Origin: Macrostomum lignano
Lineage: Eukaryota
Length of the DNA: 64,000 nucleotides
Reading direction: 5' to 3'
Assembly (NCBI GenBank): GCA_002269645.1
Contig: NIVC01001383.1
Location: 1-64,000 of the forward strand
A model generated the notes under the pieces. That model had not been told where the DNA came from. It worked only from the letters and a program-made list of their open reading frames with translations, and ran no database searches. Positions within the stretch are counted from its first letter, which is position 1. Each line of letters begins with the position of its first letter. The position numbers and the translations under genes were made by a program. Below, piece after piece: positions 1-14,692 of this stretch.

Positions 1-92
1 TTTTTTGACACAAAGCCGATTTCCTTATGGCGAAATACATAGTAAGTACAGGCCCAAAAAAATGGCAGAGTCCGAAATTTCATGTGCACGCA
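1..92 (+). repeat. Left terminal inverted repeat (truncated by window start)
   Basis: 1-72 is the exact reverse complement of 14609-14680; the match continues to 92 with 4 mismatches. Confidence 0.95.
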
Positions 93-524
93 GTCTGAAA
101 TTCCAAGTGCACGCTAAATATCTTTTACGCAACGTGATTATTCAGACGAATTGCATATCCACCTGTCCAAAATACAAGTAACCGATTCTAGCAATGGTGA
201 CACAAACACACTTCAAAGGATTCCATTCAAGACAAATTTACTCCAAAGCTATTCACACATTTCAAGTGTTTTTGAAATATTGAAAACTTGTGAATATTAT
301 CACCCTTTTGAAGAAAGATAGTAAATGATCTATTCTTGAGTGCCTATAGAATTTTTGCACCAACTTGAGCAGATGGTTTACAGATACTATGTCAACAACT
401 GCGTCAACATGCTTCTTCTTTATACTATATATATATACGAACACACTGACACAGAAAATATTAAATAACTTAAACCAAGTTTACATTATACTACTTGTTC
501 AACTATACTTACATCTTAAGTGAA

Positions 525-1473
525 ATGAAGCGATCACGTCAGCAGGAATTGGCCGAGCGCTATGTTAAACAAGGTAAGATAATCACCTACTCTAGTTCAG
601 TTTTCTTTTTTAGATTGACTGTTCGCTATAGTTTAGTTTCTAGATTGATTGTTAGTTCGGTTTCTGTTTAGACCGATCCTCTGTTTGTTCAGTCTCTAGA
701 TTGATTTTCTGCTAGTTCGGTTTCTGTTTAGACTAATACTCTGCTAGTTCAGAATTTCTAGATTGATTGTCTGCTAGTTCGGTTTCTGTTTAGACTGATT
801 CTCTGCTAGTTCAGTTTCTATATACATTGTATACATGCACCTATACCAAATTTCCCTCATCTTATCCATTATTATAGCATTCAAGAATGGTTTCTTCACG
901 CGGCCACCTCCAGATCAGTGCAAACGCATTTGCCACGACACCACCACATCCAATTCTGCTGCAAGAGCATCATATTCTACATCTCTCGCCAGAGTAACCT
1001 CGATTCATGTCGAGAGACAGACAACTGAGCTAGATCGCATTTACACAAGAACTGATGTTATTCAGTCAATTAGGCAGCAATCGAACCCACGACCAACTGA
1101 CCAACTGCAGTATGCACCACCACCACCATCACCAACCAGCTACAATGACCCAACAAAGCAAACTTGCAGTAAGCCTACAAGTACCAAACCAACGACAGCA
1201 ACTGAAACACCATCATCATCAATTGCTATTTCTACCCAAGTTCAACCGCTGCTAAACTCGCCAATTATTGTACAGAAGGACATCAAGTCTGTAAAAGTCT
1301 CTCAAATGAGCACAGGCTTCTACCAAGTAGAATTACAAAGACCTGTAATACAACTCAAGTATTTGAATATTGGGACCTATCTTAAAAAGACATTTTTTCT
1401 AACTCTTCATAAAATTTTGCCAGCAATGTGTCCAAGTAATTGCTCTTTTAGTATATATCAAACAAGTCTGTAA
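525..1473 (+). CDS. Polinton gene 1, spliced (525-573 + 878-1473), unknown P/S/T-rich protein
   Basis: ATG AAG CGA..CAA G|GTAAG donor at 574; TTATAG| acceptor at 877; phase 1 joins MKRSRQQELAERYVKQ to the 835..1473 ORF frame (AFKNGFFTRPPPDQC). Confidence 0.6.
604..820. repeat. About 59-bp tandem repeat (two ~29-bp subunits) inside the intron of Polinton gene 1
   Basis: Repeats of tagattgattgtctgctagttcggtttctgtttagactgattctctgctagttcag. Confidence 0.85.
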
Positions 1474-1639
1474 TCAATAATATAATCTCTATAAATTCAT
1501 TATTCTAAAAAATTCTTTCAATTTTATTCGCCATTTATTGAAATTATTTAATTCAATATAAAGTCAATATCTTGTACAGTCATCATTAAACAAAAATTAT
1601 TAATCCATGCAAATAATTTTTTTTCATACGTTTCTTTAG

Positions 1640-2335
1640 CCATGGTCTGGCTTTTGCCTCAACAGTATGATTTAGCTGTGGTCCAGCTTTTGCCTCAACA
1701 GTATGATTTAGCTGTGGTCCAGCTTTTGCCTCAACAGTTTTTAGCCGTGGTCCGGCTTTTTTGCCTCAGCAGTATGATTTAGCTGTGGTCTAGCTTAAAA
1801 CTGCATCAACAGTGATTTAGCTATAGTCCAGGCTTAACTACCTCAACGATGATTTAGCTATAGTCAAGGCTTAACTGTCTCAACAGTAATTTTAGCTGTT
1901 GTCCAGACTTAACTGCCTCAACAGTGATTTTAGCTGTGGTCCAGGCAACTGTCTCAACAGGGATTTAGCTGTAGTCCGATTAGCTTAACTGTCCAGTTAT
2001 TTAGCTGTGAGCCAAGCAGCAGCACCCGTCTCAACAGTGAGAATTAGCTATGGTCAGCTTTACCTCAACTGTGATTTGGCTGCTGTGGTCTAGCATAACT
2101 GACTCAACAGTAATTTTAGCTGTAGTCGTCCAGCTTAACCACCCGTCCAGTTTTATAACCATGGTCCAGCTTAACCACCGTCTCAACGTACAGCGATTTA
2201 GTCGTGGTCCAGCTTAACCGTCTCAACGTACAGTGATTTAGCCATGGGTCTAGTAGCAATTAACCGTATCAATAGTGATTTAGCCGTGGTCCAGCTTAAC
2301 TGTCTCAACACAGTAATTTAGCTTAGTCCAAACAG
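1640..2335. repeat. Degenerate ~36-38-bp tandem array inside the Polinton
   Basis: About 18 units of consensus gatttagctgtggtccagcttaactgtctcaacagt with many indels and no spacers. Confidence 0.9.
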
Positions 2336-3033
2336 CATTTGTGTGTCAACTGCACTGACTGCATGCGGTTATAGCAGCGGCAGTCATTATAGTCCCAACA
2401 AGCTGCGCGTCGCAGCATGATAGTGTAACTCTATATAGCTTCTGCTCAATATAGGACTGCAAAAGCTGAGTTACAACTATACCTTTTTCTGTTTGAAAAG
2501 TAACACTCTATATATAGGTTACTCAAGCAATCTCTTGTCACCGTGCGAGCTAAAAAATTCCAACATGCAAGCAAAACTTTCAATAAATTAATTTCATAGC
2601 ACCGCGTGCAGCTTATTTTTACTCTAAAATCCAAGATTGCTAATTTTTCAAGTCGCAAAATATTTTAATTACATTCTACTTGAGAACAAAACCAATCTAA
2701 TGAAGCAGCAACCAGCAGTCTTCTTATTAAACGCTTGCCATCGTGTTACTCTTGCAAATTTATAACTAGTGTGCCTAAGATTCATTAATTTTATTGTATA
2801 AAATATCAACCTACATTTGCGTAAAATTAGACCTAATCATGCAACCCACCCTAGAAACTTATGCCACCTTTGGCACGCAACAATGTCTTAATCAGCACGC
2901 AACAATTAAATTTGTTTACTAGTTCACAAACAGCATGCAAAGCTTGCTATAAATACAAGACCCGAAATGGTCAATTTTTCATGAGCTCAATCATTACAGC
3001 AAAAGAAATACTATATTCAATTGCTTGTAAGAC

Positions 3034-4232
3034 ATGGCAGCTTGCATCAAGACGGAGTCAATTGTACGCTCCGACTCGAGTCCGATTTTTTACGTTGGAG
3101 AGCAGTCTACAACCACGACTGGTTCGTCCTGCCAGTTTCGATCTATTGCGTGGAAACCATCAATCGAGTGTACAAAATGGTACCCAATTATATTGCAAAC
3201 CAAGGCTCCAATGGAGCTTTTTCGTGGAATCGCAGAAAGGCCAGAGCTCGATCATCCGTCTTGCAGACACGACTCTCGCGACGCAGTAAGTGTCCAATTT
3301 CATCCAGACAGCTGCGATAAGGAACTCTTCCACTCTCTCCGGTGAGCACCATATTAAATTTATACAATTAATTTTAGGAAACTATATTCATAATTTATAT
3401 AATGTTTTGCAGTCAAGTCGAAAAAGGTCTATCGGTCAAGTTGAACGAGATTCAAGATGCTCGACCCTTGGCACGACTAACAAAACCAGCTCATCAGCAT
3501 GCTAACGACGTCCTCGAGTTTGTGCCTCAACAATGGCTGGCTATAAAGCCTGCTTACCCTTGTGCCACAATCAGGATCAGCAACGATCATCCACACGGGA
3601 AGGAGGTGTCCATTTCCGATTTCAAAGGTGTCAGCGGTACCTACCAAATGACAGTGCAAGCAACGAGCTTGTATTGTCCAAAAGGCTGCCTCGTCTGGCG
3701 CATTACATTCGCTGTGCGCTCTCTGACACTCATAGAATCTTCCGACAACATGTTGCAGCGCCTCGACATGTTCAAGGGAGTGCTTGCACACCTACCCGCG
3801 ACCAAGTCAGCAATTAGAAGCAGGAGTCCGTCCCCAACATCTACCTGTGAGCAAGAAGAAGCAAATGAACAAAGCCTGCAGAATTCAAGCCAGGTGACAC
3901 CTGCCAAGTCACCTGCAAAGCGTCGGTCTACCACCACCGTATCGAAGAAGTCGACTACATCGAATGCAGCGCCAGCCTCTATTGAACCGCCGCCTAAAAA
4001 GCAAGTTCGAAAACGCAGCGGTGCAAAACAGCAAAACAATTCTGCCGAAGCTGGTGCAGATGGCACAGACTGGGTGGAGGCTCCACCAGCAAAGATCTTG
4101 GTGAGTACACCTGCCTCTGGAACCAGGGTAGCGTCCAAGGAGACAGCATTTTTAAAGCGTGCTGCTGCGGACGCTACTACAGCTAGCGTGTCTTCATCGG
4201 ACGACTCGTACAGCAGCTCTGATGATGAGTAA
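3034..4232 (+). CDS. Polinton gene 2, spliced (3034-3341 + 3413-4232); putative OB-fold ssDNA-binding protein with basic linker and acidic tail
   Basis: CTC CG|GTGAG donor at 3342 and TTTTGCAG| acceptor at 3412 join ORFs 3034 and 3402 in phase 2; motifs PIILQTKAPMELFRG and YQMTVQATSLY..WRITFAVRSL; ends SSSDDSYSSSDDE. Confidence 0.6.
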
Positions 4233-4442
4233 CAAAATTTTTGACTAATTTTATCCAAGTTTTAACTAACTTATTCCACTATATTTATCAAATTTTTGGC
4301 TAGGGAAATATTATTTTTTAGGGAAAAGCTCAAAACATTTTTTGCTACTCCTTGTACGCTAACCAGGTTTTGTAATTTAATATTAGAATTTACGATAGTA
4401 TAGTCATGTTTAACTTTTCTTATTATTTATTTTCCGTTTTAG

Positions 4443-5000
4443 CGACTTGTCCTATTAATAGTTACTGCGAGTCTGAAGCTGCACCCGTTTGAAAAATTTG
4501 ATTTAAAGCAGACCAAACAGAAGCTACAGACCAGAAACCGGTTTTGCAAACTATTCCTAAGCCGACCAACAATGCTAAAGACAATTTATTCAAATGCTAA
4601 AATCCAACTTTATCCAGCAGGAAAACTAACTATATATGGCTGTAAATCAAATTCTCAGATAGTCTCAGTTTTACGATTTATCAACGACACTATTAATTGT
4701 GTAGATTTTGATTCAGTAAAAATTCAGAGCAGTACCTATGTCGGCTTTATTGGTCATCTTTGGCCAAAATTCGGTTTCTCTAGTCTAAAAAGATATGCAG
4801 GCTACTATTCGAATTATCTGGTTGGATACGATGCAGAAAATTTCCCACAAGCAGTTTCTGTTAGATCAGCATCAAAACCAAGGCTTTTTTGTAACATATT
4901 TTTTTCGAAAAAGTTTGTTATTATGGGCGTTCAAAACACTCATGAATTGAATAATATTCTTAACCATGTCAAGGATTTTTTAATCTCTGTTAATAACTAA
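4443..5000 (+). CDS. TATA-binding-protein (TBP)-like protein, both pseudo-repeats present; start codon uncertain
   Basis: AKIQLYPAGKLTIYGCKS ~ TTALIFSSGKMVCTGAKS; VKIQS ~ FKIQN; YDAENFPQAVSVRSASKPRLFCNIFFSKKFVIMGV ~ [33 protein letters not shown]; frame open from the acceptor at 4441-4442 (first strand LLIVTASL..FDLK lies upstream of the 4572 ATG). Confidence 0.85.
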   Translation, partial: RLVLLIVTASLKLHPFEKFDLKQTKQKLQTRNRFCKLFLSRPTMLKTIYSNAKIQLYPAGKLTIYGCKSNSQIVSVLRFINDTINCVDFDSVKIQSSTYVGFIGHLWPKFGFSSLKRYAGYYSNYLVGYDAENFPQAVSVRSASKPRLFCNIFFSKKFVIMGVQNTHELNNILNHVKDFLISVNN

Positions 5001-5223
5001 ACTTAACAAGTAAACAATTGCTGTCAAATCGCAGTTGCGATGCATTCTTTTACAAACATTTTGTCTTTTTTTATTTATTTACCAATTGTTTTCTCTAATA
5101 GTAAACGTGTCAGCTATACCTATAACTAACCAAATCATCATTTTTCTTACAGCCGCAAATGACAAACCGGATCATCTATTAATATTATGCTCGATACGCT
5201 CGTTGTCGAGCTAGGTGCACACA

Positions 5224-5937
5224 ATGCCGCGTGCACAATGCCAAATCTGCAGAAAAAAGTTCAGTAATCAAGCCGAGCTGCATGCTCACTCGCATGGTGC
5301 TTGTTTTTCACCGCAACGATTACTGACCGGATCGCTGCAAAACCTGATCGAAAACCCACCAGATGGGTGGTCCATCGCTTTGCGCGAGTCAGCTCATCGT
5401 GGTCGGGTAAATTTTGTCGAATTTACTCCCACTCTTGAACAACAAGGCAACAGCTCTGGCGAGTTACTTCCTGGCGAGTTGATTGCGTCTTTAAGAGAAC
5501 CAATATTTAAAATATTGGAAAAAATTGGCTCACCCAGTTTATTAATAAGAGTCTGCTTTCACTTGAAAGTGACACTATTTCGACCGAAAACAGCAGCAGA
5601 CGACAACGATGGCTCGAGCAGCGAAGAGATCATTTCGGTCTATTTTAATACCAACATTGCGACAATATCATTTGATGAGACGATTGCAAACAGTGACATG
5701 CTGTTATCTCCCGAGGCCTACAATGACTGGTTCGCACGCGTTATTAATCAGTTGTTAATAAAAATTGACAATTTTCAATCTCGAGGTAGTAATTGGCAAT
5801 ATAGAGCAATCGAGCAGCTAGACTTGATGCTCTGCGTTTATCGCAAAAGCCATGCAAGCACACTGTCAACAAATACGTCCCACGGTGGTGTGGGGGCGGG
5901 CGGCGGCAGTGGTGGTGGTGGCGGCGGTGGTGGTGGT

Positions 5938-5969
<32 letters not shown>

Positions 5970-6105
5970 GCGCGGGGAGTCCGGTCCAGTCCGGTCCGGT
6001 CCAGTCCGGTCCGGTCTGGTTAAGCAGCAATCGTTTAAAGTTCCAGTCTCAATCGGTCGCAAAGCTGGAGCAGTACTGCTTCTAAAGCCGCACAGAGCAG
6101 TTTAA
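5224..6105 (+). CDS. C2H2 zinc finger plus N-terminal (terminal-protein-like) region of Polinton protein-primed PolB; no polymerase domain
   Basis: CQIC..HAHSH finger; IDNFQSRGSNWQYRAIEQLDLMLCVYR and SFKVPVSIGRKAGAV match, by recall, the GSGW and SYI.LP..I..K.A blocks of Polinton pPolB N-termini. Confidence 0.7.
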
Positions 6106-6400
6106 AGCATCAAGACTATTTAAGAGTCTTACACAAGCGACAACTTGTGTTTTCGCGCATACAGTCCATTCGTTCTCGAAAACAGAAAGTTTTTTTTGAT
6201 GCAACAAAGAAAACTTGCACTAAGCTTCTTCGATACGAAGCGATCCTGGACAAGTTCAATTAATTCGCTACCCTTTGGACACTGGCACTTGGCTAATTAA
6301 TTAACAATATGCTCTGATCTCTTTTGTTGTACAAAGTAATAGCATGCTATAGAAGACTGTAACCCATCATTAATTTTTTCATTGATCATTATTTACAATA
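6106..6400 (+). pseudogene. Disrupted continuation of the pPolB N-terminus (vOTU-like protease remnant)
   Basis: Same frame after two TAA stops reads SDNLCF (OTU-type D..C motif); frameshifted RYPLD and IDHY pieces follow; similarity ends before dUTPase. Confidence 0.5.
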
Positions 6401-6592
6401 AATAAATGATACCGGCATTCGTTTAAATTATAATTTTAGCACTTTTTTGTGTTTAATTATTTGAAAAAGTATATTTTTTATAGTTAGATTCTCAAGACTA
6501 AGCTTGTGTTTGTAGTAGACGTAAATGTAGTGCTATCGTTCATGTTTCAAGAAAAAAAACTTTTTTTTAAACTTTCAGCTACAAGAATCGAC

Positions 6593-7075
6593 ATGAATCC
6601 CGAGCAGCAGCAGCAACAACAACTAACTGATCGTAAGCTTTTAGTTGAACGTCTATACGATTCGGCAACGATTCCGACCCGAAAAACTGTCGGGTCGATC
6701 GGGTATGATCTTTGCGCTGGCGTCGATGGTACCATTCCGGCCTACGAGTCCCGGAGTGTGCGAACCGGACTCAAAATTCGCTTACCGCCTGGTACCTATG
6801 GCAGGATAGCGGGACGTTCCAGCATGGCTCTGCACAGCTTATTTGTTGGCGGTGGCGTAATCGACCCCGACTATACTGGTGAAATCTGTATAGTCTTGTT
6901 TAATTACAGTCCGGAAGACTTTGAGTACTATGCCGGGCTCAGTATTGCACAACTGGTTCTGGAGCAGGCCGTGCTTGCTTCAGTCTATGTGACTGAAGCA
7001 GACAATTCGATTCGGATGATTGAGCCGCCGACCAAGCGGCGCGGCTTTGGCGGCTTTGGCAGCACTGGCCAATAA
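6593..7075 (+). CDS. dut: dUTPase (trimeric type), Polinton-borne
   Basis: All five motifs: GYDL, RIAGRSS, GGVIDPDYTGEI, IAQLV, RRGFGGFGSTG; likely ATG at 6593. Confidence 0.97.
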   Translation: MNPEQQQQQQLTDRKLLVERLYDSATIPTRKTVGSIGYDLCAGVDGTIPAYESRSVRTGLKIRLPPGTYGRIAGRSSMALHSLFVGGGVIDPDYTGEICIVLFNYSPEDFEYYAGLSIAQLVLEQAVLASVYVTEADNSIRMIEPPTKRRGFGGFGSTGQ

Positions 7076-7166
7076 GTATAATAATAATAATAAACTGATT
7101 TTTTTCTTTGGTGATTGGTGCACTATGCGAGAGCTTTGTAAATACTATAAGCAATTTTAAAAATTT

Positions 7167-7610
7167 ATGCCTAAAATATATGTTGTAAAAATGTCTCCAG
7201 CGAAAGATCGAGGTTTTAAAAAGAAAAAGAAGAGCATTCGTAAAAAGAAGAAATCTATTAGAAAGATTAATAAAAAGCAACAAGGTTATGGTGTCGTAAA
7301 TTGGTTAATTAATCATTTACCATTTGAAGCACATTTACCCGGCGGATATCAGTTTTGTGGTCCAGGTACGCAACTGCAAGCTAGGCTAGCAAAAGGACAA
7401 CGAGGAATTAATCGGCTTGACAATTTGTGCATGCTTCACGACGTGGCCTATGATAAAAATTCTGACGTGCAAGAGAGGTTAAAAGCTGATAAGCTATTAG
7501 AATCTGGTGCACGAGAGATTGCCCACGATCCGTCTACTGGTTGGAAAGAAAAACTAGCTGCGAAGTTGGTTACCAAGGTTATGCAAGTTAAGCAACGCTT
7601 TGGTGCTTGA
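7167..7610 (+). CDS. Parvovirus VP1u-type phospholipase A2 with Lys-rich N-terminus
   Basis: HLPGGYQFCGPGT Ca-binding loop and DNLCMLHDVAY catalytic HD; second ATG at 7191 may be the real start. Confidence 0.9.
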   Translation: MPKIYVVKMSPAKDRGFKKKKKSIRKKKKSIRKINKKQQGYGVVNWLINHLPFEAHLPGGYQFCGPGTQLQARLAKGQRGINRLDNLCMLHDVAYDKNSDVQERLKADKLLESGAREIAHDPSTGWKEKLAAKLVTKVMQVKQRFGA

Positions 7611-8302
7611 AAATGCAGCAGCCATACAATATGCAACTAGCTCACGATTCTACATTTATTATTGCTGGACCTTCAAACTCGGGTAAAACTGAATGGACGT
7701 TGCGTTTGTTGACTGAACGAAAAGAATTATTTGATAAAAAACCGTGCCGTCTTGTTTGGTGCCATGGATCAAGTTTGAAACCAGACGATCAACAACGAAT
7801 TAGAACATGCTGGCAAAAAAGCGGTCTTGACCCTATTGTTTTTGTACCCGAATTCACACCACAGATGATTAATCGTTTTTTACCACACGATTTGGTTGTT
7901 GTTGACGACTTGCAAAGCGAGATTGCTAAGTTGCCAGAATTTACTAGTATGTTTACAAAGCATGCGCATCATATCCCTTTGACTTGTCTGTACCTTTGTC
8001 AAGGTCTTTTTAACAAGTCTGATCCAGAAGCACGCATGCGAAGTTTATCAGCTAGTTATATTTGTCTAACTCGTAGTGTGCGCGATCGAACCACAGTTGA
8101 ACATCTCGGTCGACAAATGTATCCGCGTAATAGTAGGTTTCTAGTGAATGTGTATGAAGACGCAACAAATAACAAACCTTTTTCATATTTATTCATTGAC
8201 CTGCGGCAAGTGACACCAGATTTTTTACGATTGAGAACAGGAATATTTTCTGGTGATGAACAAGTTGTCTATACTCGTGAATGTGATGCAAAGTTTGTGT
8301 AA
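7607..8302 (+). CDS. A32/FtsK-like genome-packaging ATPase
   Basis: Walker A GPSNSGKT, Walker B LVVVDDL, HHIPLTCLYLCQ motif. Confidence 0.95.
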   Translation: MKMQQPYNMQLAHDSTFIIAGPSNSGKTEWTLRLLTERKELFDKKPCRLVWCHGSSLKPDDQQRIRTCWQKSGLDPIVFVPEFTPQMINRFLPHDLVVVDDLQSEIAKLPEFTSMFTKHAHHIPLTCLYLCQGLFNKSDPEARMRSLSASYICLTRSVRDRTTVEHLGRQMYPRNSRFLVNVYEDATNNKPFSYLFIDLRQVTPDFLRLRTGIFSGDEQVVYTRECDAKFV

Positions 8303-8359
8303 TATTATTATAAGCAAATTATAAACTGTTGTCAATATTAGTTTGTGTTTTATTTCAAA

Positions 8360-9349
8360 ATGAGTTTTTACGTTTTTTTGCCGTCAAACGATATCAGTTA
8401 CGAAACCAACTCGCCTAATGAATTTCGAGTGCGACTAACTGAACCAATAAATTTATTGAACGGATTCTTCGAGGTTGCACTAGTTGAATTACTGTGCCAT
8501 GGAGCAATTACGACGCCAAATGCTCATCGTGAGCGTCGATTTGAAGTTCCATATTTTGCGGACATTGACTCAATAATACGATTAAAGAAAAACTATTGGG
8601 GTCGTGTTTGGGCAGAGGCAGACTTGGATGCTTACGTTTCCTGGCAACCGTCTGGTACAGATGAAAAATTTGCCTGGCTTTTACGAAATTCAGGCGAAAA
8701 AACTATTGGATTAGAACTACCAGTTACATTTATGGACGCTTTCAAATTTGACTCTTGGAAGAAACTTTCTGGACTTGTCTCGGAAAAATTATCAAAACCT
8801 GCCGCTGGTAGTGTACAACCACCGGATGGTTCATACTTGGATTTGATAAAAAGTCTCGACAATACTCTAGCGCTAGTACCTGAGAACTATTATGTTTTTT
8901 ATTGTGTTCTATCGCCTGGTGAAGCTATACGACTTGTTTCGCATGGAGACTATCTTCGAAAAACGGAAGGAGAAGTGTACATCAAAGTACACCAATATTG
9001 GTTGAGAAATCGTGTTTGGCGCATTAACAAAACCTACTTGGATGCTGTGCTACCTTCTCCGATGCCTAGTAAAACGGTTTACATGTACTGTTACACAGAT
9101 ATAATCGAGTATCAAGCAGTGGGAAGTACATCAGTACCGTTGCTTCGAGTTGTGGAACTCCAACAAAAGAAAAACGGAGAACTTATACGCGATAGCAGTG
9201 CATTGCAAACACCCTACTACTTGAAAACAAATCGACAACAAATTCACGAGATTTCGATTCGACTATCGGACCAGCGCGGAAAACCGTTTAATTTTGATCC
9301 GGGAGCACACGTTGTTGTCGTACTGCATTTTAAACATAGGTCGGACTAA
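8360..9349 (+). CDS. Minor capsid protein (penton)
   Basis: FYVFLPSN..N.PNEFRVRL..FEVALVEL and MYCYTDII..VG...PLLRVV..ISIRLSDQRG..VVLHF, typical of the Polinton single jelly-roll mCP. Confidence 0.92.
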   Translation: MSFYVFLPSNDISYETNSPNEFRVRLTEPINLLNGFFEVALVELLCHGAITTPNAHRERRFEVPYFADIDSIIRLKKNYWGRVWAEADLDAYVSWQPSGTDEKFAWLLRNSGEKTIGLELPVTFMDAFKFDSWKKLSGLVSEKLSKPAAGSVQPPDGSYLDLIKSLDNTLALVPENYYVFYCVLSPGEAIRLVSHGDYLRKTEGEVYIKVHQYWLRNRVWRINKTYLDAVLPSPMPSKTVYMYCYTDIIEYQAVGSTSVPLLRVVELQQKKNGELIRDSSALQTPYYLKTNRQQIHEISIRLSDQRGKPFNFDPGAHVVVVLHFKHRSD

Positions 9350-9405
9350 TTTATAAGCAAAGATTAATTGTGTAATAGAAAATTTTGTGAATTTGTTTTG
9401 TAAGA

Positions 9406-9834
9406 ATGAGCGAACTAACAGAAAAAGGAAAACAAAATGCTCGCTCATTGTGTCAGTGTGCTTTTTTACTACAAATTGTTTATCGGCTAAAGCATCCAAA
9501 GCAGAGAAAAAGTTTTTTACAAACACTTTCAGAGTCGGAGATACGATGTCTAGTAGACTTTCTGTTTAATATTATTAGTGGACGTATTAAAATTAGTAAC
9601 TGTAACAAAAGACGACTTGAGAAGCATCGCAGATATATACGCCAGCTTTTGGAACAGAAGACTCCAATTACTGCAAAAAGGAAAATACTTGTCCAACACG
9701 GAGGATTTTTACCTTTTTTGGCTCCAATTATTGCCGCTCTACCTGCTATAAGCACTGCGCTTGGGATAACGTCTGGAGTAGTTGGTACCGCCGCGGGAGC
9801 AGCGAATTTAATACGATCAATTCAACGAAAGTAG
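9406..9834 (+). CDS. Conserved Polinton protein with C-terminal GG|FLPFL amphipathic segment (candidate membrane-lytic core protein)
   Basis: RKILVQHGGFLPFLAPIIAALPAI.. hydrophobic tail after an adenain-like GG site. Confidence 0.75.
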   Translation: MSELTEKGKQNARSLCQCAFLLQIVYRLKHPKQRKSFLQTLSESEIRCLVDFLFNIISGRIKISNCNKRRLEKHRRYIRQLLEQKTPITAKRKILVQHGGFLPFLAPIIAALPAISTALGITSGVVGTAAGAANLIRSIQRK

Positions 9835-9844
9835 TAGGAATATA

Positions 9845-10534
9845 ATGCGAACTAACGAGAGTAGTAGTTTTCAACGAATGTATCTAGTACCTGAATCTGT
9901 GTATCAATCTGCATGTCAAGGTGCAGAGCAAGGATCGTCACCAACTGCTGAGACACCTCGAAAAACTGAAGTTTTAGACGCACCGCAAGATGCTCTGGCA
10001 AAAAATATGGTGGAAATGAGAGACCAAATGGATAACTTGGACAAGGAAATGGAAAAGGAGCCAAATTACACAGCTCAATTGAAACGAAGCAGATTGGAAG
10101 ACAAACTTTTAAAATTGCGCAAAGTCTATCGCACTGGAGACGAGGACAATCTGTCACTTGTTCGCAAAGGGACTACTGTAAGAAGTTCATATGCCAGCGA
10201 ATCAAGGGAAATTCCTAAAGTTTTTTTACCACGTTTCGAAGCTCTCGCTCAAAACCTATTTTCGGACATGGACAAGAATGCAGAACCAATGCTGGCTAAT
10301 TTGACTGATGCCGAGATACAAGATCTCATGGAATATGTTGTTCGAGACAGACCGCTTAAGCGACACGAGACTCAACCGCCTAGTGGACTAAAAACATTTT
10401 TAGACTTTCTTCGAAAACGTGGAATCGCAGCAAACCAAATCGGGCGTCATGTACGAAACGAGCTAATGTCTGCTCCAAAAACTGTTGCAAAGGAGGATCT
10501 TAGTCTGTTTGAAAATTATCAAACACTGAATTAA
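9845..10534 (+). CDS. Polinton hypothetical protein
   Basis: 229-aa ORF with a RMYLVPESVY N-terminal motif like those in other Polinton ORFs, co-oriented in the structural block. Confidence 0.7.
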   Translation: MRTNESSSFQRMYLVPESVYQSACQGAEQGSSPTAETPRKTEVLDAPQDALAKNMVEMRDQMDNLDKEMEKEPNYTAQLKRSRLEDKLLKLRKVYRTGDEDNLSLVRKGTTVRSSYASESREIPKVFLPRFEALAQNLFSDMDKNAEPMLANLTDAEIQDLMEYVVRDRPLKRHETQPPSGLKTFLDFLRKRGIAANQIGRHVRNELMSAPKTVAKEDLSLFENYQTLN

Positions 10535-10646
10535 GTTGTTTTAAAATTACAGATTACGTTTTAACAAAATTGATTCGAGCACTATAAGCTTTTTAAAAAG
10601 GTTAATTTTTTGTTTATGAAAAATATATAGTTTAATAAGACAAACC

Positions 10647-10835
10647 ATGTCATCTATCTTCCAAAAACTTTTGATTCGTCTCTGTGAGTTTTTTTGCATA
10701 AAATCTGAATGTGTGCCGTTTCTGGGAAAGGAGCACAACGAGGATACTGACGGAGATTCGATCGAGGCTTCGTTCTTTTGTTGCAACTGTCAAACGACTA
10801 GCATCAATCTAACTGATGATGAAGCGAGTGCGTAA
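10647..10835 (+). CDS. Small Cys-containing ORF overlapping the integrase start
   Basis: 62 aa; TATAAGCT 64 bp upstream; function unknown. Confidence 0.4.
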   Translation: MSSIFQKLLIRLCEFFCIKSECVPFLGKEHNEDTDGDSIEASFFCCNCQTTSINLTDDEASA

Positions 10836-11976
10836 GGAAATTGAAGAATTTTTGACGGATGCTTTTTTTAACTTGAACAGGCCTACTTCATTTAGTGGTA
10901 ACAAGACTATACTTGTTCGTGAAGTACGTAAAAAGTTTCCACAGATTACGAACAAAGTTGCAAAGCGCGAAGTTGATAATTGGGTGCGATCAACAAATGA
11001 GCATCATTTATTTCGAAAAACACGACGAAACTTTCCAACTCCAAAAATTAGTGTGCCACCAGTTGCAAAGTTTCAGTTTCAAATCGATTTGGCAGATTTA
11101 CCTCAATACAAGACGGAAAATCGAGGTTATCGTTACATACTTGTTCTTATCGACTGTTTTACTAGAGTTGTACGACTAAGACCATTGCGTACAAAGAAGC
11201 CTTCAGAAGTTAGTCAAGTATTACTAGAGATTTTTCGAAGTGGTTTTAAGCCTGTTTATTTACAAGGTGATGCTGGTATGGAGTTTCTCGGAAGAGCTAC
11301 ACGTCAAATGCTGAAACAGGAAGGAGTTCGATTTTTTGTTAGCCAAAGCAATTACAAGGCAAGCATGGCTGAACGATTTATCCGCTCGTTAAAGGAACGT
11401 CTATTACGATACTTTCGAGCAAAAAATTTACCTCGATGGTTTGACATTTTACCGCAATTGGAAGATAATTTCAACTCTAGTCCTCATCGATCCTTGAGTG
11501 GAGAAACACCAAAACGGGTAGAGACAGACCCGCATTTACAAGGAATTTTGTGGGACAAAATGTTTGCGAAGTCGTACACTAAAAAGAATGAGAATAAATT
11601 TAAAGTTGGTGATTGGGTTAGAATTACACGACGTCGAGGAACATTTGAAAAAGGATACACTACGACTTGGAGTAATTCAAAATATCGCATTCATCGTGTA
11701 CACTTGACAGACCCGCCAATGTACGAATTAGTGGACCCTGAAGATGGATTTGAAGTGCTGAAAGGAAGGTTTAACCAAGCGGAACTAATGTTGGTAAACG
11801 AGACAGATGAAACACCTAATGAAATTGAAAAAGTTATTGAAACTGATCGAGCGAAAAATGGAAGTCGTCTGTATCTAGTAAAATGGAAAGGTATGCCAAT
11901 CTCAAGAAGTCAGTGGTTAAACGAAAATGATCTTGACGCAAAGACTGCTAAACTATTTTCTAAAGTGTATAAGTAA
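10816..11976 (+). CDS. Retroviral-type (rve) DDE integrase with C-terminal chromodomain
   Basis: QFQIDLAD / LQGDAGMEF / MAERFIRSLK triad; KFKVGDWVRI; IEKVI..YLVKWKG..SQWL chromodomain. Confidence 0.97.
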   Translation: MMKRVRKEIEEFLTDAFFNLNRPTSFSGNKTILVREVRKKFPQITNKVAKREVDNWVRSTNEHHLFRKTRRNFPTPKISVPPVAKFQFQIDLADLPQYKTENRGYRYILVLIDCFTRVVRLRPLRTKKPSEVSQVLLEIFRSGFKPVYLQGDAGMEFLGRATRQMLKQEGVRFFVSQSNYKASMAERFIRSLKERLLRYFRAKNLPRWFDILPQLEDNFNSSPHRSLSGETPKRVETDPHLQGILWDKMFAKSYTKKNENKFKVGDWVRITRRRGTFEKGYTTTWSNSKYRIHRVHLTDPPMYELVDPEDGFEVLKGRFNQAELMLVNETDETPNEIEKVIETDRAKNGSRLYLVKWKGMPISRSQWLNENDLDAKTAKLFSKVYK

Positions 11977-12017
11977 CACATGAATTGGGATTGCATGACG
12001 AAGAGAAGACTGTTGAA

Positions 12018-12476
12018 ATGGATCCTATTTTTGCTTTTTATTCTGGTCCGAATAGATCTGCTGAAGGTGGAGGTGGATATGGCATTCCTGTTTACGAAGG
12101 TTACGGTTTTTTGTCAAATTTGGCGGACAGATTGGTGTATCCTGTACTACGCAACGCAAAGAAAGATTTCTTGGATCGTGGTCTGGAGTATTTGAAAAGT
12201 GCGACAGCAAAAATTGGTATGGGTCGGAAGCGTCACTTGGACACAGAATCGAGCGAAGAGATGTTTAATACAACTGCAGTTTCGAGACCAAAGCGAAGGA
12301 AAAGAACCAGTGGAGTGGCTATAAGCTTAGGAAAGAAGAAACGGCAAAAGAAACGACGAACAAGACAGTGTGGAAAGGGACGCGTGAACAAAAGAAAACG
12401 CAAGAAGACCGGTGGTATAGGAAAACGTCGAACTGCTACTGCAAGCAAGAAACTTTTTAGTCTGTTTGAAAAGTAG
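12018..12476 (+). CDS. Arg/Lys-rich core (pVII-like) DNA-condensing protein with adenain-type sites
   Basis: GGGYG|IP, EGYG|FLSNL and CGKG|R motifs followed by long K/R tracts; probable ATG at 12018 (ORF track 11985). Confidence 0.75.
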   Translation: MDPIFAFYSGPNRSAEGGGGYGIPVYEGYGFLSNLADRLVYPVLRNAKKDFLDRGLEYLKSATAKIGMGRKRHLDTESSEEMFNTTAVSRPKRRKRTSGVAISLGKKKRQKKRRTRQCGKGRVNKRKRKKTGGIGKRRTATASKKLFSLFEK

Positions 12477-12477
12477 C

Positions 12478-13800
12478 ATGAACCATTTGCTTGGACCTGA
12501 TATTGCTGCTCTTAAAAGTGAATTGTCGCTATTTGATCAAAGTCCTGTTCAGTTTAGTGTTTTGGATAATCGATATACTAACATTCAACCGCAACATGGT
12601 ATTACAAAAGGATCACCTATCGAATTTGAAGTTGTGCCTGCAGGCGATTTGTATTTGGATCTACAAGAAACTGTGCTCACGGTATGCTTCAGCGTTAGTG
12701 ATAGTGAAGGTGAACCTATAGATGCAACGAAAAATTTTGTTTGTTTGAATAATTTGGTTATTGGAACATTGTTTGAGGACGTTCAATTTACTATTGGCGA
12801 TACTGTAGTTGAAGGTGGTAGTTTTATGTATCCATACAAGGCTATGCTTCTTACATTACTGGAATATGGACATACAGCTCAGAAGGCTGGTTTACTGCCG
12901 TGGGGGTTTTACAAGGATACAGCTGGTAAAATGAATGCAACAAGTGAAAACGATGGACGAACAAAGAGGCAGGCGCTCATTGCTAACAATAGGCGGTGCA
13001 CTGTATCGGGGCCGTTATTCTTGGATTTGTTTCGTCAGCCTCGGTATCTACTATCAAAGACACCACTACGGATCAAGCTCATACCGGCAAAAAGTAAATT
13101 TGTCCTGAGCGGGTCAACATTAGAAGCTGGTGCGGTTTTAAAAGACTATGAGATCAAGTTTTTGCGTGCAGAACTACGATTGCGGTTTGTTCAACCCTCG
13201 CCGAGTGTTATCAGTGCACATGCTCATGGACTTAAAAGTCACAATGCATTATATCCGCACCGAAGTCTAAGCCTTGGTACGTTTACTATACCCCGAGGAT
13301 CGTCTAGCCATACGCATGAAAATTTGTTTCCTAGTGGGGTACCACGGCTTTTATTGATGGCAATCGTAAGCAACAAGGCATTCAATGGAAGCATGGACAC
13401 AAATCCGTTCAACTTTGAGCATGCAAATGTGAGCAGCATTGGTGTGTTTGTGAATGGAGACTCGGTACCATCGCGTCCGCTGCAGACAAACTTTGGAGAT
13501 GATTGTGTGACAGAGTATAATTTTTTGCTACAACAGCTTGGAATCTATCTACAGGGACGAGATATTGGATTTAATATGCTGGATTACGCCAATGGTTACT
13601 CAATTTTTGCATTCAGTCTTGGAAGTGAACCTGGTGTCGGACGGGGAGTGCAACTGTATAAGGAAGGAAATGTAAAACTAGAGTTACGCTTCAATGCTGC
13701 AACTAGTACCGTGTACAACGTCATATTTGGAGGTATATTTGACAAGCAACTGCAACTGACTGAACTTCGCGACATTGTTCCTGGCACAGTATGGAAGTAA
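12478..13800 (+). CDS. Double jelly-roll major capsid protein (hexon-like)
   Basis: KSELSLFD..PVQFSV, PIEF...YLDL, LDLFRQPRYL, NPFNFEHANV; Polinton MCP pattern, 440 aa. Confidence 0.95.
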   Translation: MNHLLGPDIAALKSELSLFDQSPVQFSVLDNRYTNIQPQHGITKGSPIEFEVVPAGDLYLDLQETVLTVCFSVSDSEGEPIDATKNFVCLNNLVIGTLFEDVQFTIGDTVVEGGSFMYPYKAMLLTLLEYGHTAQKAGLLPWGFYKDTAGKMNATSENDGRTKRQALIANNRRCTVSGPLFLDLFRQPRYLLSKTPLRIKLIPAKSKFVLSGSTLEAGAVLKDYEIKFLRAELRLRFVQPSPSVISAHAHGLKSHNALYPHRSLSLGTFTIPRGSSSHTHENLFPSGVPRLLLMAIVSNKAFNGSMDTNPFNFEHANVSSIGVFVNGDSVPSRPLQTNFGDDCVTEYNFLLQQLGIYLQGRDIGFNMLDYANGYSIFAFSLGSEPGVGRGVQLYKEGNVKLELRFNAATSTVYNVIFGGIFDKQLQLTELRDIVPGTVWK

Positions 13801-14354
13801 TTGATTCTATCCTAGATCGTGGTGTAACAGATCGCTTCCTTCGCAATGTTGTATCGAAATTGTGCGCACATTTTTTAAATGTTGTATTTCTTGGTGTTTT
13901 TCCTCAAAACTTTGTTGGTGGACTTAGACGCTTACCTTTAGACGGTAAAGACTATTTTTTTATCGTTAATACTGACGTCTCCAACCTGCCCGGAAAACAT
14001 TGGGTATGCGTTTGGGTTTATGGTCATCGAGCAGGTCGCGGTAGCAAACGACTTGGTGAATATTTTGATTCTCTTGGTCTAGTACCATTGCCAAGAATAG
14101 CAAAATGGCTAGGAAAAGAATGTGGAAATTCGAAAAATTGGTGTTATAGTCGCTTTGCTATCCAAGACCCACAGAGTGGAAGTTGTGGATTTTGGGTAAT
14201 TTTTTATATTTTTCATAAGTTGACTACCAGAGGAAACCTAGAGTGTTTTATTCGAAGCGTTTTTAAACGGAATATAATTCGCACTGGTTCGTTTCGATAC
14301 TTGTATGCTAAATTACGCAATTTTGTTTTACGAGTGCTGCCTCAATATTTGTAA
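13791..14354 (+). CDS. Adenain-type (C5) cysteine maturation protease
   Basis: FIVNTD..PGKHWVC, EYFDSLG, IQ...SGSCG (His-Asp-Gln-Cys). Confidence 0.95.
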   Translation: MEVIDSILDRGVTDRFLRNVVSKLCAHFLNVVFLGVFPQNFVGGLRRLPLDGKDYFFIVNTDVSNLPGKHWVCVWVYGHRAGRGSKRLGEYFDSLGLVPLPRIAKWLGKECGNSKNWCYSRFAIQDPQSGSCGFWVIFYIFHKLTTRGNLECFIRSVFKRNIIRTGSFRYLYAKLRNFVLRVLPQYL

Positions 14355-14588
14355 ACTCGCTAATTTGTGCGTCAAATTGTGTTTGTATCTAGTTGAAATA
14401 TACAATACTGCTTGAAAAGAAGAATTTAAATGCGTTAAGTTATACGCGAAATAAGCTTTGTGTCAAATTGAATTTTGGTTGGGCTTGTAATTAGCTGCAT
14501 TCATTGCGGATAGAATTTAGGTGGATAGACAGGTGTTTGCGTAAAAGTGATTCAGCTAATTGGTTAATTCATTGCGTAAAAGCTAGTT

Positions 14589-14692
14589 TGCGTGCACGGC
14601 AAATTTCAGACTCTGCCATTTTTTTGGGCCTGTACTTACTATGTATTTCGCCATAAGGAAATCGGCTTTGTGTCAAAAAAACGTATACTACT
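14589..14692 (-). repeat. Right terminal inverted repeat
   Basis: Reverse complement of 1-92 plus terminal ACGTATACTACT; followed by GGTGGG (predicted 6-bp TSD, unverifiable in this window). Confidence 0.95.

What the first reader, a model, noticed from the sequence alone, without database searches (positions are those of the whole stretch)
4443..5000. TBP-like gene inside a Polinton/Maverick
Seen: both TBP pseudo-repeats align by eye (LYPAGKLTIYGCKS; YDAENFP..KPRLFCNIFFSKKFVIMG). Second-repeat intercalating Phe residues are retained (ENFP, NIFF), one first-repeat Phe appears as Tyr, and the DNA-contacting Asn of the QN(I/M)V motifs is replaced (LLIV, KIQSS). Established: TBP homologues are known from large nucleocytoviruses, but I do not recall them as standard cargo of metazoan Polintons. 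Inference: an altered-specificity TBP or a decoy interfering with host TFIID. The first beta-strand lies upstream of the first ATG (4572), so splicing or a non-ATG start is needed.
Basis: partly seen in the sequence, partly recalled or inferred. Interest (0 to 1): 0.85.

Follow-up and report, generated by a model that had tools for sequence, protein, structure and literature searches.

The report
Polinton TBP spliced onto DNA-binding protein
A virus-like jumping element in a flatworm genome carries a heavily altered TATA-binding protein that has no start codon of its own and is likely completed by splicing, either onto the element's predicted single-stranded-DNA-binding protein or onto the host's spliced leader, and it likely switches on the element's particle-building genes through a shared TATA-like box.

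Summary
Observation confirmed. 4443-5000 is a TBP-fold exon (Pfam PF00352 above cut-off; family profile hits 35 TBP chains) in a ~14.7-kb, PolB-deleted Polinton/Maverick; 22 protein-identical copies and five diverged families lie in the genome. It keeps the C-lobe Phe/Pro and the acidic TFIIB-site Glu, but has lost both DNA-contacting Asn and the N-lobe Phe pair (Arg, Tyr). The frame starts at a phase-0 splice acceptor in all families, and the part before the first ATG is under coding constraint. The upstream gene folds like a giant-virus/T7-type ssDNA-binding protein and holds a phase-0 donor at one motif in 8 of 8 families, predicting a 517-aa SSB-TBP isoform. Rival: the host spliced leader ends in ATG, is seen on the next acceptor, and would supply the start. 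Neither junction was seen at the TBP acceptor in 8 runs. A TATAAG box precedes 8 of 9 right-arm genes, and another TBP-bearing clade uses CTTAAGAA, favouring a late-promoter factor over a decoy. The scan noted TBP, box and splice before on other DNA; two note searches found no SSB-fusion or leader reading. DNA binding is untested.

The parts
1..92 (.). Left terminal inverted repeat, cut by the contig start
   Evidence: 96% complementary to 14589-14680; window is bases 1-64000 of its contig
3034..3341 (+). Exon 1 of the upstream gene (predicted ssDNA-binding protein, SSB)
   Evidence: ORF; N-terminus of database protein P0152
3342..3412 (+). 71-nt GT..AG intron
   Evidence: Joint in contigs of 3 of 4 runs laid
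3413..4232 (+). Exon 2 of the SSB gene: rest of the OB-fold core, disordered basic region, acidic tail
   Evidence: Model of P0152 matches ASFV CP312R (Foldseek E 2.1e-4; VIA Z 12.3, rmsd 4.3, 183 aligned)
4101..4106 (+). Candidate internal splice donor (GTGAGT), phase 0 in the SSB frame
   Evidence: Donor-like site at the same motif in 9 of 9 loci of 6 close families and in 6 of 6 loci of 2 distant families; no joint seen in 8 runs
4428..4442 (+). Splice acceptor (pyrimidine tract + TAG), phase 0 to the TBP frame
   Evidence: Same codon position in 9 of 9 loci of 6 families
4443..5000 (+). TBP-like exon, 185 codons, both lobes, no start codon before residue 44
   Evidence: coding constraint upstream of the first ATG
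5138..5152 (+). Acceptor that receives the host spliced leader
   Evidence: 23-nt loose end in run X7 equals part of the published leader; leader genes read ATG then GTAAG
5224..6105 (+). N-terminal part of PolB (zinc-finger start); gene internally deleted after ~6099
   Evidence: PolB name from motifs read by eye in related copies
6187..6291 (+). Remnant of the PolB C-terminal end
   Evidence: tblastn in identical copy L098, mapped by offset
6593..7075 (+). dUTPase, preceded by an acceptor at 6578
   Evidence: PF00692 E 1.5e-29; acceptor
7146..13662 (+). Eight TATAAG boxes (7146, 8309, 9352, 9747, 10583, 11968, 12320, 13657), 21-233 nt before 8 of the 9 right-arm ORFs; none in 1-7145
   Evidence: kept at matching places in related families
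7167..14354 (+). Right-arm cassette: PLA2-domain protein, packaging ATPase, minor capsid, pX, ORF 9845, integrase-chromodomain, ORF 12018, major capsid, protease
   Evidence: Pfam for PLA2, pX, integrase, chromo, weak for protease; capsid and ATPase names are recalled from motifs and gene order, no Pfam hit above cut-off
14589..14692 (.). Right terminal inverted repeat ending ACTACT

Best explanation
The frame at 4443-5000 is the start-less last exon of a Polinton-encoded TBP-fold protein; it is likely joined in frame, by an alternative splice, to the element's predicted single-stranded-DNA-binding protein, and the product likely binds the TATAAG box in front of the capsid, packaging and integrase genes to switch them on with host RNA polymerase II. 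Shown: TBP homology, the acceptor, coding constraint, the box and its place, transcription and splicing of the upstream gene. Predicted: the SSB fold. Inferred: use of the donor at 4101 (giving a 517-aa SSB-TBP isoform beside the 375-aa plain SSB), binding of the box, recruitment of host TFIIB through the kept acidic loop, and tethering of the TBP to single-stranded, replicating templates so that late genes fire only on genomes being copied.
For: Acceptor at the first codon in 9 of 9 loci, 6 families. Donor-like GTR[AG]G at one Pro-Lys motif, phase 0, in 8 of 8 families, including two whose capsid protein is only ~31% identical; only 11 of 114 Val codons in these ORFs form such a site, 8 of them being these. 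Identity across families is 0.53 just before the site and 1.0 at it, against 0.16 and 0.24 in the flanks. In the distant families the acceptor lies inside the upstream ORF, 67 or ~197 nt behind the donor. Upstream protein folds like ASFV CP312R, T7 gp2.5 and Enc34 SSB. Purifying selection before the first ATG: dN 0.30, dS 1.21 for the one unsaturated family pair. TATAAG[CT] 5-10 times against 0.5-1.0 expected, 0 of 200 shuffles, in 6 of 6 late regions, 0 in the window's left arm; a clade with another TBP has CTTAAGAA instead (3-4 against 0.1 in 6 of 6) and no TATAAG[CT]. E132 invariant in 13 of 13. TBP and box kept in copies that lost PolB.
Against: No 4100-4443 joint in the contigs of 8 runs, while several contigs read through the donor or the acceptor (not all pieces were shown, runs are only guessed to be RNA). 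No fused protein among 7988 longer candidates or in the 148 profile hits; database gene models run through the donor. The motif may be conserved as protein; the pattern was drawn after seeing the data, and kin share codons. SSB homology of the distant upstream genes is weak (hhalign probability 1.6-2.9%). The leader route explains the acceptor without a donor. Both Asn and the N-lobe Phe pair are lost, so DNA binding is not assured. TATAAG is one base from a canonical TATA box and may be read by host TBP. No TBP-less Polinton was found as a control (6 of 6 further loci had one), and no shared box stood out in the two distant families.
Confidence: 0.4

Rival explanations
1. Same late-promoter role, but the protein stands alone: the left arm is an operon-like transcript cut up by spliced-leader trans-splicing, and the leader's terminal AUG is the start codon of a 186-aa mini-TBP. 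This can coexist with the fusion, as both compete for one acceptor.
For: Leader seen on the next acceptor; the published leader ends in ATG (PMC8629364; PMC12582326 says it can act as a start codon); leader genes read ATG|GTAAG in 2 of 8 loci viewed. The PolB start codon is ATG in 5 of 16 loci and an acceptor CAG at the same codon in 7 of 16. Kinase and dUTPase genes also have acceptor-like sites just before their ATG. The leader Met would sit 4 residues before the strand-1 Asn position, the commonest spacing among related mini-TBPs (9 of 35).
Against: No leader seen at 4443 in 8 runs. It does not explain the conserved in-frame donor; PMC8629364 states that trans-splicing dominates where no unpaired donor lies upstream. 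In two distant families the acceptor is inside the upstream ORF.
Confidence: 0.3
2. The TBP-fold protein (fused or not) is a DNA-bending replication or packaging factor that binds the element's own A/T-rich DNA, and host TBP reads the TATAAG boxes.
For: Neighbour and predicted partner is an SSB; the gene sits among replication genes; specificity residues are lost; TATAAG is TATA-like.
Against: Invariant acidic TFIIB-site Glu; the box differs between clades that carry different TBPs; stand-alone TBPs with their own ATG and no adjacent SSB in the other clade.
Confidence: 0.13
3. Decoy: the protein binds host TBP partners (TFIIB, TFIID subunits, NC2, Mot1) without binding DNA and dampens host transcription or defence.
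For: Both Asn and two of four Phe are replaced; the TFIIB-site Glu is kept, so it could titrate TFIIB.
Against: C-lobe Phe, Pro and Phe are invariant or nearly so; the N-lobe that binds host regulators is the altered half; uniform family-specific boxes need a reader.
Confidence: 0.1
4. Translation starts at the invariant Met44 and gives a 142-aa truncated protein, or the frame is a non-functional passenger.
For: Met44 is invariant in 13 of 13; no RNA junction seen.
Against: Codons 1-43 are under purifying selection; the same Met is kept as an internal residue in related mini-TBPs that start further upstream; frames are open in six families at 39-46% identity.
Confidence: 0.04

Closest known systems
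Cellular TBP/TRF family (Pfam PF00352)
   Same: Two-lobe sequence profile, C-lobe Phe-Pro and Phe, acidic loop Glu.
   Different: About 21% identical to host TBP; Asn pair lost; N-lobe Phe pair is Arg and Tyr; no start codon; a clade with host TBP is rejected (AU p 3.6e-7).
Beta/gamma-herpesvirus viral TBP (KSHV ORF24) and TATT late box (PMC12529657, passages read)
   Same: Works like it under the best reading: a viral TBP variant, a non-standard TATA-like box before late genes, host polymerase II, TBP domain as part of a larger protein.
   Different: ORF24 keeps four Phe, lacks the TFIIB-site acids and needs five viral partners; here two Phe are replaced, the Glu is kept, no partner complex is evident and the predicted fusion partner is an SSB.
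Nucleocytovirus TBP-TFIIB pairs (PMC7221094, passages read)
   Same: Virus-encoded TBP with diverged N-lobe.
   Different: Those viruses mostly encode their own TFIIB; no TFIIB match among the 15 ORFs of this element. An own RNA polymerase in those viruses is recalled, none is present here.
Polintons/Mavericks/adintoviruses (PMC8502044, section 3.4 read whole, other passages, one supplement searched)
   Same: Terminal inverted repeats, integrase-chromodomain, capsid module, pX, PLA2.
   Different: TBP appears there only as a label in the Fig. 5 legend, in the section on non-animal datasets; which genome carries it could not be seen. No SSB, splice or late box is described in what I read.
Giant-virus and T7 gp2.5-type SSBs (ASFV CP312R, PDB 8hw5/7yeq)
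   Same: Predicted fold over residues 1-211 and an acidic tail.
   Different: 8-15% identity; intron-containing; predicted alternative C-terminus made of a TBP domain.

Membership tests
TBP fold family (PF00352) | Profile match above the curated cut-off | tested here: met
   31 bits vs 22.9; 2 of 5 related family representatives also pass, 2 fall just under, 1 has no hit
TBP fold family (PF00352) | Two pseudo-symmetric lobes | tested here: met
   Family profile aligns to TBP chains over positions ~16-176; alignment with host TBP
TBP fold family (PF00352) | Saddle structure | tested here: inconclusive
   Single-sequence model pLDDT 46; TBP at rank 46, Z 3.6, rmsd 3.7, 63 aligned
Canonical TBP | Four intercalating Phe | tested here: not met
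   F134, F153 kept; Y57 and R41 in the N-lobe
Canonical TBP | Two base-contacting Asn | tested here: not met
   Leu and Ser at these columns
Canonical TBP | Acidic C-lobe residues for TFIIB | tested here: met
   E132 in 13 of 13, D130 in 9 of 13; sequence only
Canonical TBP | Descent from the host TBP gene | tested here: not met
   AU p 3.6e-7 on a 28-row quick tree
Canonical TBP | Binds and bends a TATA box | not testable with these tools
   Needs biochemistry
Polinton/Maverick | Terminal inverted repeats | tested here: met
   92 nt, 96%
Polinton/Maverick | Retroviral-type integrase | tested here: met
   PF00665 33.7 bits vs 32.6 plus chromodomain
Polinton/Maverick | Protein-primed PolB in this copy | tested here: not met
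   Internally deleted here and in 26 of 30 loci compared; present in a 96%-identical subfamily and in the diverged families. The copy is a non-autonomous derivative.
Polinton/Maverick | Capsid, ATPase, protease module | tested here: inconclusive
   ORFs conserved in order across families; protease PF00770 only E 0.038, no Pfam hit for capsids; names recalled
Polinton/Maverick | Target-site duplication | not tested
   Left end cut by the contig start
Herpesvirus-type vTBP late system | Uniform non-standard box before late genes | tested here: met
   (the genes are called late by their virion role, not by timing)
Herpesvirus-type vTBP late system | Four Phe kept and TFIIB-site acids lost | tested here: not met
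   Opposite pattern
Herpesvirus-type vTBP late system | [quoted passage not shown] | tested here: inconclusive
   No such Pfam match among 15 ORFs; two right-arm ORFs are unexplained
T7 gp2.5/CP312R-type SSB (upstream gene) | OB-fold of this type | tested here: met
   Z 12.3 to CP312R, next rows Enc34 SSB and gp2.5 at 6.4; 101 BFVD matches at E<=0.001, listed rows from large DNA viruses; model mean pLDDT 53.6
T7 gp2.5/CP312R-type SSB (upstream gene) | Binds ssDNA | not testable with these tools
   Needs biochemistry

The most novel reading that the evidence does not exclude
Flatworm Polintons couple genome replication to late transcription with one two-exon switch: the SSB gene is alternatively spliced so that its acidic tail is swapped for an altered TBP, which is carried to replicating templates and reads a family-specific box; the host spliced leader, with its own AUG, can make a free TBP from the same exon.
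Probability: 0.25. Interest if true: 0.9.

Novelty: new variant of a known kind. Interest (0 to 1): 0.74.

Why it matters
How Polintons/Mavericks time their genes is essentially undescribed in the papers I could search. A TBP with a matching box gives a direct test of whether these integrated elements run an early-to-late program like real viruses. An SSB-TBP isoform would be a minimal solution to the old question of how late transcription is tied to DNA replication. Use of the host leader's AUG as a start codon by a mobile element would show deep adaptation to host trans-splicing. TBP-box pairs that differ between clades are also natural variants for studying TBP specificity.

Tried and rejected
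Single-protein homology search found nothing. IMG/VR scan with the family profile found no relative; with a mini-TBP profile it found 4 loci, none with Polinton genes by tblastn. The metagenome scan gave one spurious hit on a bacterial-type contig. Single-sequence TBP model was too poor to use. Complex prediction with part of host TFIIB returned 'no answer', score 0.00, folded without alignments; it is no evidence either way. No listed run is on record as RNA. TATAAG is not enriched in the whole window (32 vs 37 expected); only its position in the element is informative. Upstream ATG at 4406 is out of frame. Atlas search with exon 1 was uninformative; with exon 2 it gave only leads below 0.9 (DUF5871, DUF2738, Pox_I3). 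Pfam and PDB sequence searches do not recognise the SSB. One origin for all Polinton TBPs here was neither shown nor rejected (AU p 0.135). The 97-row tree is a quick tree; the careful search did not finish. A paper search for the yeast TFIIB-site residues returned 0.

Full report
OBSERVATION. The frame 4443-5000 is open for 185 codons with its first ATG at 4572. It passes the Pfam TBP cut-off (31 vs 22.9 bits), and phmmer against the PDB returns only TBP-containing chains, 7 of 7 at E<=10. A profile of nine family members reaches E 2.5e-9; 35 of 37 hits are TBP and most span both lobes. Against the host TBP found in the same genome: F134, P135, F153 and E132 are kept; the N-lobe Phe pair is R41 and Y57; both Asn are replaced. 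Yeast numbering is recalled except F116, E188 and L189, which appear. A structure check failed for lack of a good model.

THE ELEMENT. It spans 1 to 14692 with 92-nt terminal inverted repeats and encodes dUTPase, PLA2, pX and integrase-chromodomain by Pfam, plus ORFs that I name capsid, ATPase and protease from recalled motifs and gene order. PolB is internally deleted at about 6099; 26 of 30 loci compared share this, 4 diverge there, and two of those were shown to continue into PolB. The genome gives 83 matches among 97 candidates: 22 are protein-identical, and five further families lie at 39-46% identity with open frames. The upstream protein is identical to a UniRef entry named from Macrostomum lignano, so the host is taken to be this flatworm. 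TBP-like genes also sit in a second large clade and a third lineage and in 6 of 6 further loci of two more lineages. A quick tree puts this family (13 rows, support 97) among unnamed mini-TBPs, away from host TBP and TRF2; a clade with host TBP is rejected (p 3.6e-7), a clade of all Polinton TBPs is not (p 0.135) (28 of 97 rows used). It is therefore an old element-borne lineage, not a recent capture.

THE MISSING START. In 9 of 9 loci of six families the frame begins right behind a pyrimidine tract and AG, in phase 0. Codons 1-43 evolve like coding sequence: dN 0.30 and dS 1.21 for the one unsaturated family pair, and pN 0.43-0.47 against pS 0.67-0.88 for the window against 8 others. Two sources of a 5' end fit.

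Route A, cis splice. The upstream gene is transcribed and spliced: the 71-nt intron is joined out in contigs of 3 of 4 runs. Its product P0152 folds (mean pLDDT 53.6, core 70-90) like ASFV CP312R (E 2.1e-4; Z 12.3), then Enc34 SSB and T7 gp2.5, with 101 matches in the viral library. In its disordered tail a donor-like site follows one Pro-Lys motif in phase 0 in all six families and in both distant lineages (6 of 6 loci), where the TBP frame again lacks a Met and starts at an AG. Only 11 of 114 Val codons of these ORFs form such a site, 8 being these; conservation peaks at the site. With codon use from these genes, the Val codon alone would fit six times by chance at about 0.02; kinship weakens this. 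The isoform would have 517 residues. Against: no joint in 8 runs, no fused database protein, weak evidence that the distant upstream genes are SSBs, and a motif defined after the fact.

Route B, spliced leader. Run X7 has a loose end at the next acceptor, 5152. It occurs 58 times in the genome, equals part of the published 35-nt leader ending in ATG (PMC8629364, passages), and two of eight loci viewed show ATG followed by GTAAG. PMC12582326 (passages) says flatworm leaders end in ATG that can serve as a start. The PolB start is ATG in 5 of 16 loci and an acceptor CAG at the same codon in 7 of 16; kinase and dUTPase genes have acceptor-like sites just before their ATG. A leader Met would sit at the commonest distance from strand 1 among related mini-TBPs (9 of 35). 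Against: no leader seen at 4443; the conserved donor is unexplained; in distant lineages the acceptor lies inside the upstream ORF. I rate A slightly above B; both may occur.

A TARGET. An earlier scan note (e1-9035083) led me to look for a box. TATAAG occurs eight times on the + strand of the element, each 21-233 nt before one of 8 of the 9 right-arm ORFs, and never in 1-7145. It recurs at matching places in related families. TATAAG[CT] exceeds all 200 shuffles in 6 of 6 late regions; the second clade shows CTTAAGAA in 6 of 6 such regions (weaker in 3 shorter stretches) and no sense-strand TATAAG[CT] in 9 of 9. Both motifs were chosen after inspection. The two distant lineages showed no clear shared box, and I found no TBP-less family as a control.

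MECHANISM. Early left-arm transcription gives SSB, kinase, PolB and dUTPase (partly shown: splicing and leader addition). A minor splice gives the TBP protein (inferred). Its C-lobe grips the box and likely recruits host TFIIB through E132, while the altered N-lobe accepts the non-standard 3' half and escapes host regulators (inferred from sequence; PMC7221094 passages, describe such N-lobe divergence in viral TBPs). If fused to the SSB it would be drawn to replicating single strands (speculative). The complex prediction gave no answer.

KNOWN AND NEW. It works like the herpesvirus vTBP system (PMC12529657, passages) but fails its residue pattern; it is a TBP-fold protein but not a canonical TBP. 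PMC8502044 lists TBP only in a figure legend (its preprint likewise; one supplement file searched, no hit; the figure itself could not be seen). Word look-ups for TBP, TATA and SSB in four other Polinton papers found no such gene. Searches were seen as listings only and showed no paper on Polinton TBP function; subscription papers are not covered. Scan notes already record TBP, box and a splice to the gene in front in this genome, and mini-TBPs in other genomes; they are leads, not support. Two note searches for the leader and SSB-fusion readings returned nothing.

VERDICT. Real, conserved, and part of a probable late-gene switch. New variant of a known kind; interest 0.74; most novel reading probability 0.25, interest 0.9.

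Noticed in passing
window 5224-6291: PolB is internally deleted; 26 of 30 loci compared share the junction and are 98.9-100% identical, so a non-autonomous subfamily has spread recently while keeping SSB, TBP and the capsid genes.
   Followed up: partly
window 5138-5152; L031-L036, L048: Host spliced leader on the PolB acceptor; in other families the PolB start codon itself is replaced by an acceptor, so the leader AUG may start the polymerase.
   Followed up: partly
L031, L033, L035, L037, L039, just behind the TBP exon: A deoxynucleoside kinase gene (PF01712 for L033) follows or overlaps the TBP exon in the diverged families, is in one frame with it in L039/L040, and is absent from the window family.
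   Followed up: partly
L063-L082: A second, high-copy Polinton clade with a different TBP that has its own ATG, placed at the end of the capsid cassette behind an exonuclease-like ORF (named by eye); PF00352 gave 330 candidates in the genome, 150 scored.
   Followed up: partly
L080, L116-L127: Three further Polinton lineages with TBP-like genes; L124 also carries a Fic-like ORF (motif read by eye).
   Followed up: partly
window 629-820 and 1635-2322: Tandem repeats (periods 32/62 and 36-40) in the left arm; the ORF at 835-1473 has no Pfam match.
   Followed up: no
L112-L115, L128, L131: Six of eight leader matches viewed are not followed by the GT donor; four continue with one shared different sequence, perhaps leader capture by another repeat.
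   Followed up: no
L051-L062: Host TBP and a TRF2-like gene each occur at three places in the assembly.
   Followed up: no
P0005-P0147: A large unnamed group of 150-210-aa TBP-like proteins shares Arg/Lys-Pro-x-Met in place of the first Phe and groups with this family (57 rows, SH-aLRT 89); their genomic context was not obtained.
   Followed up: partly
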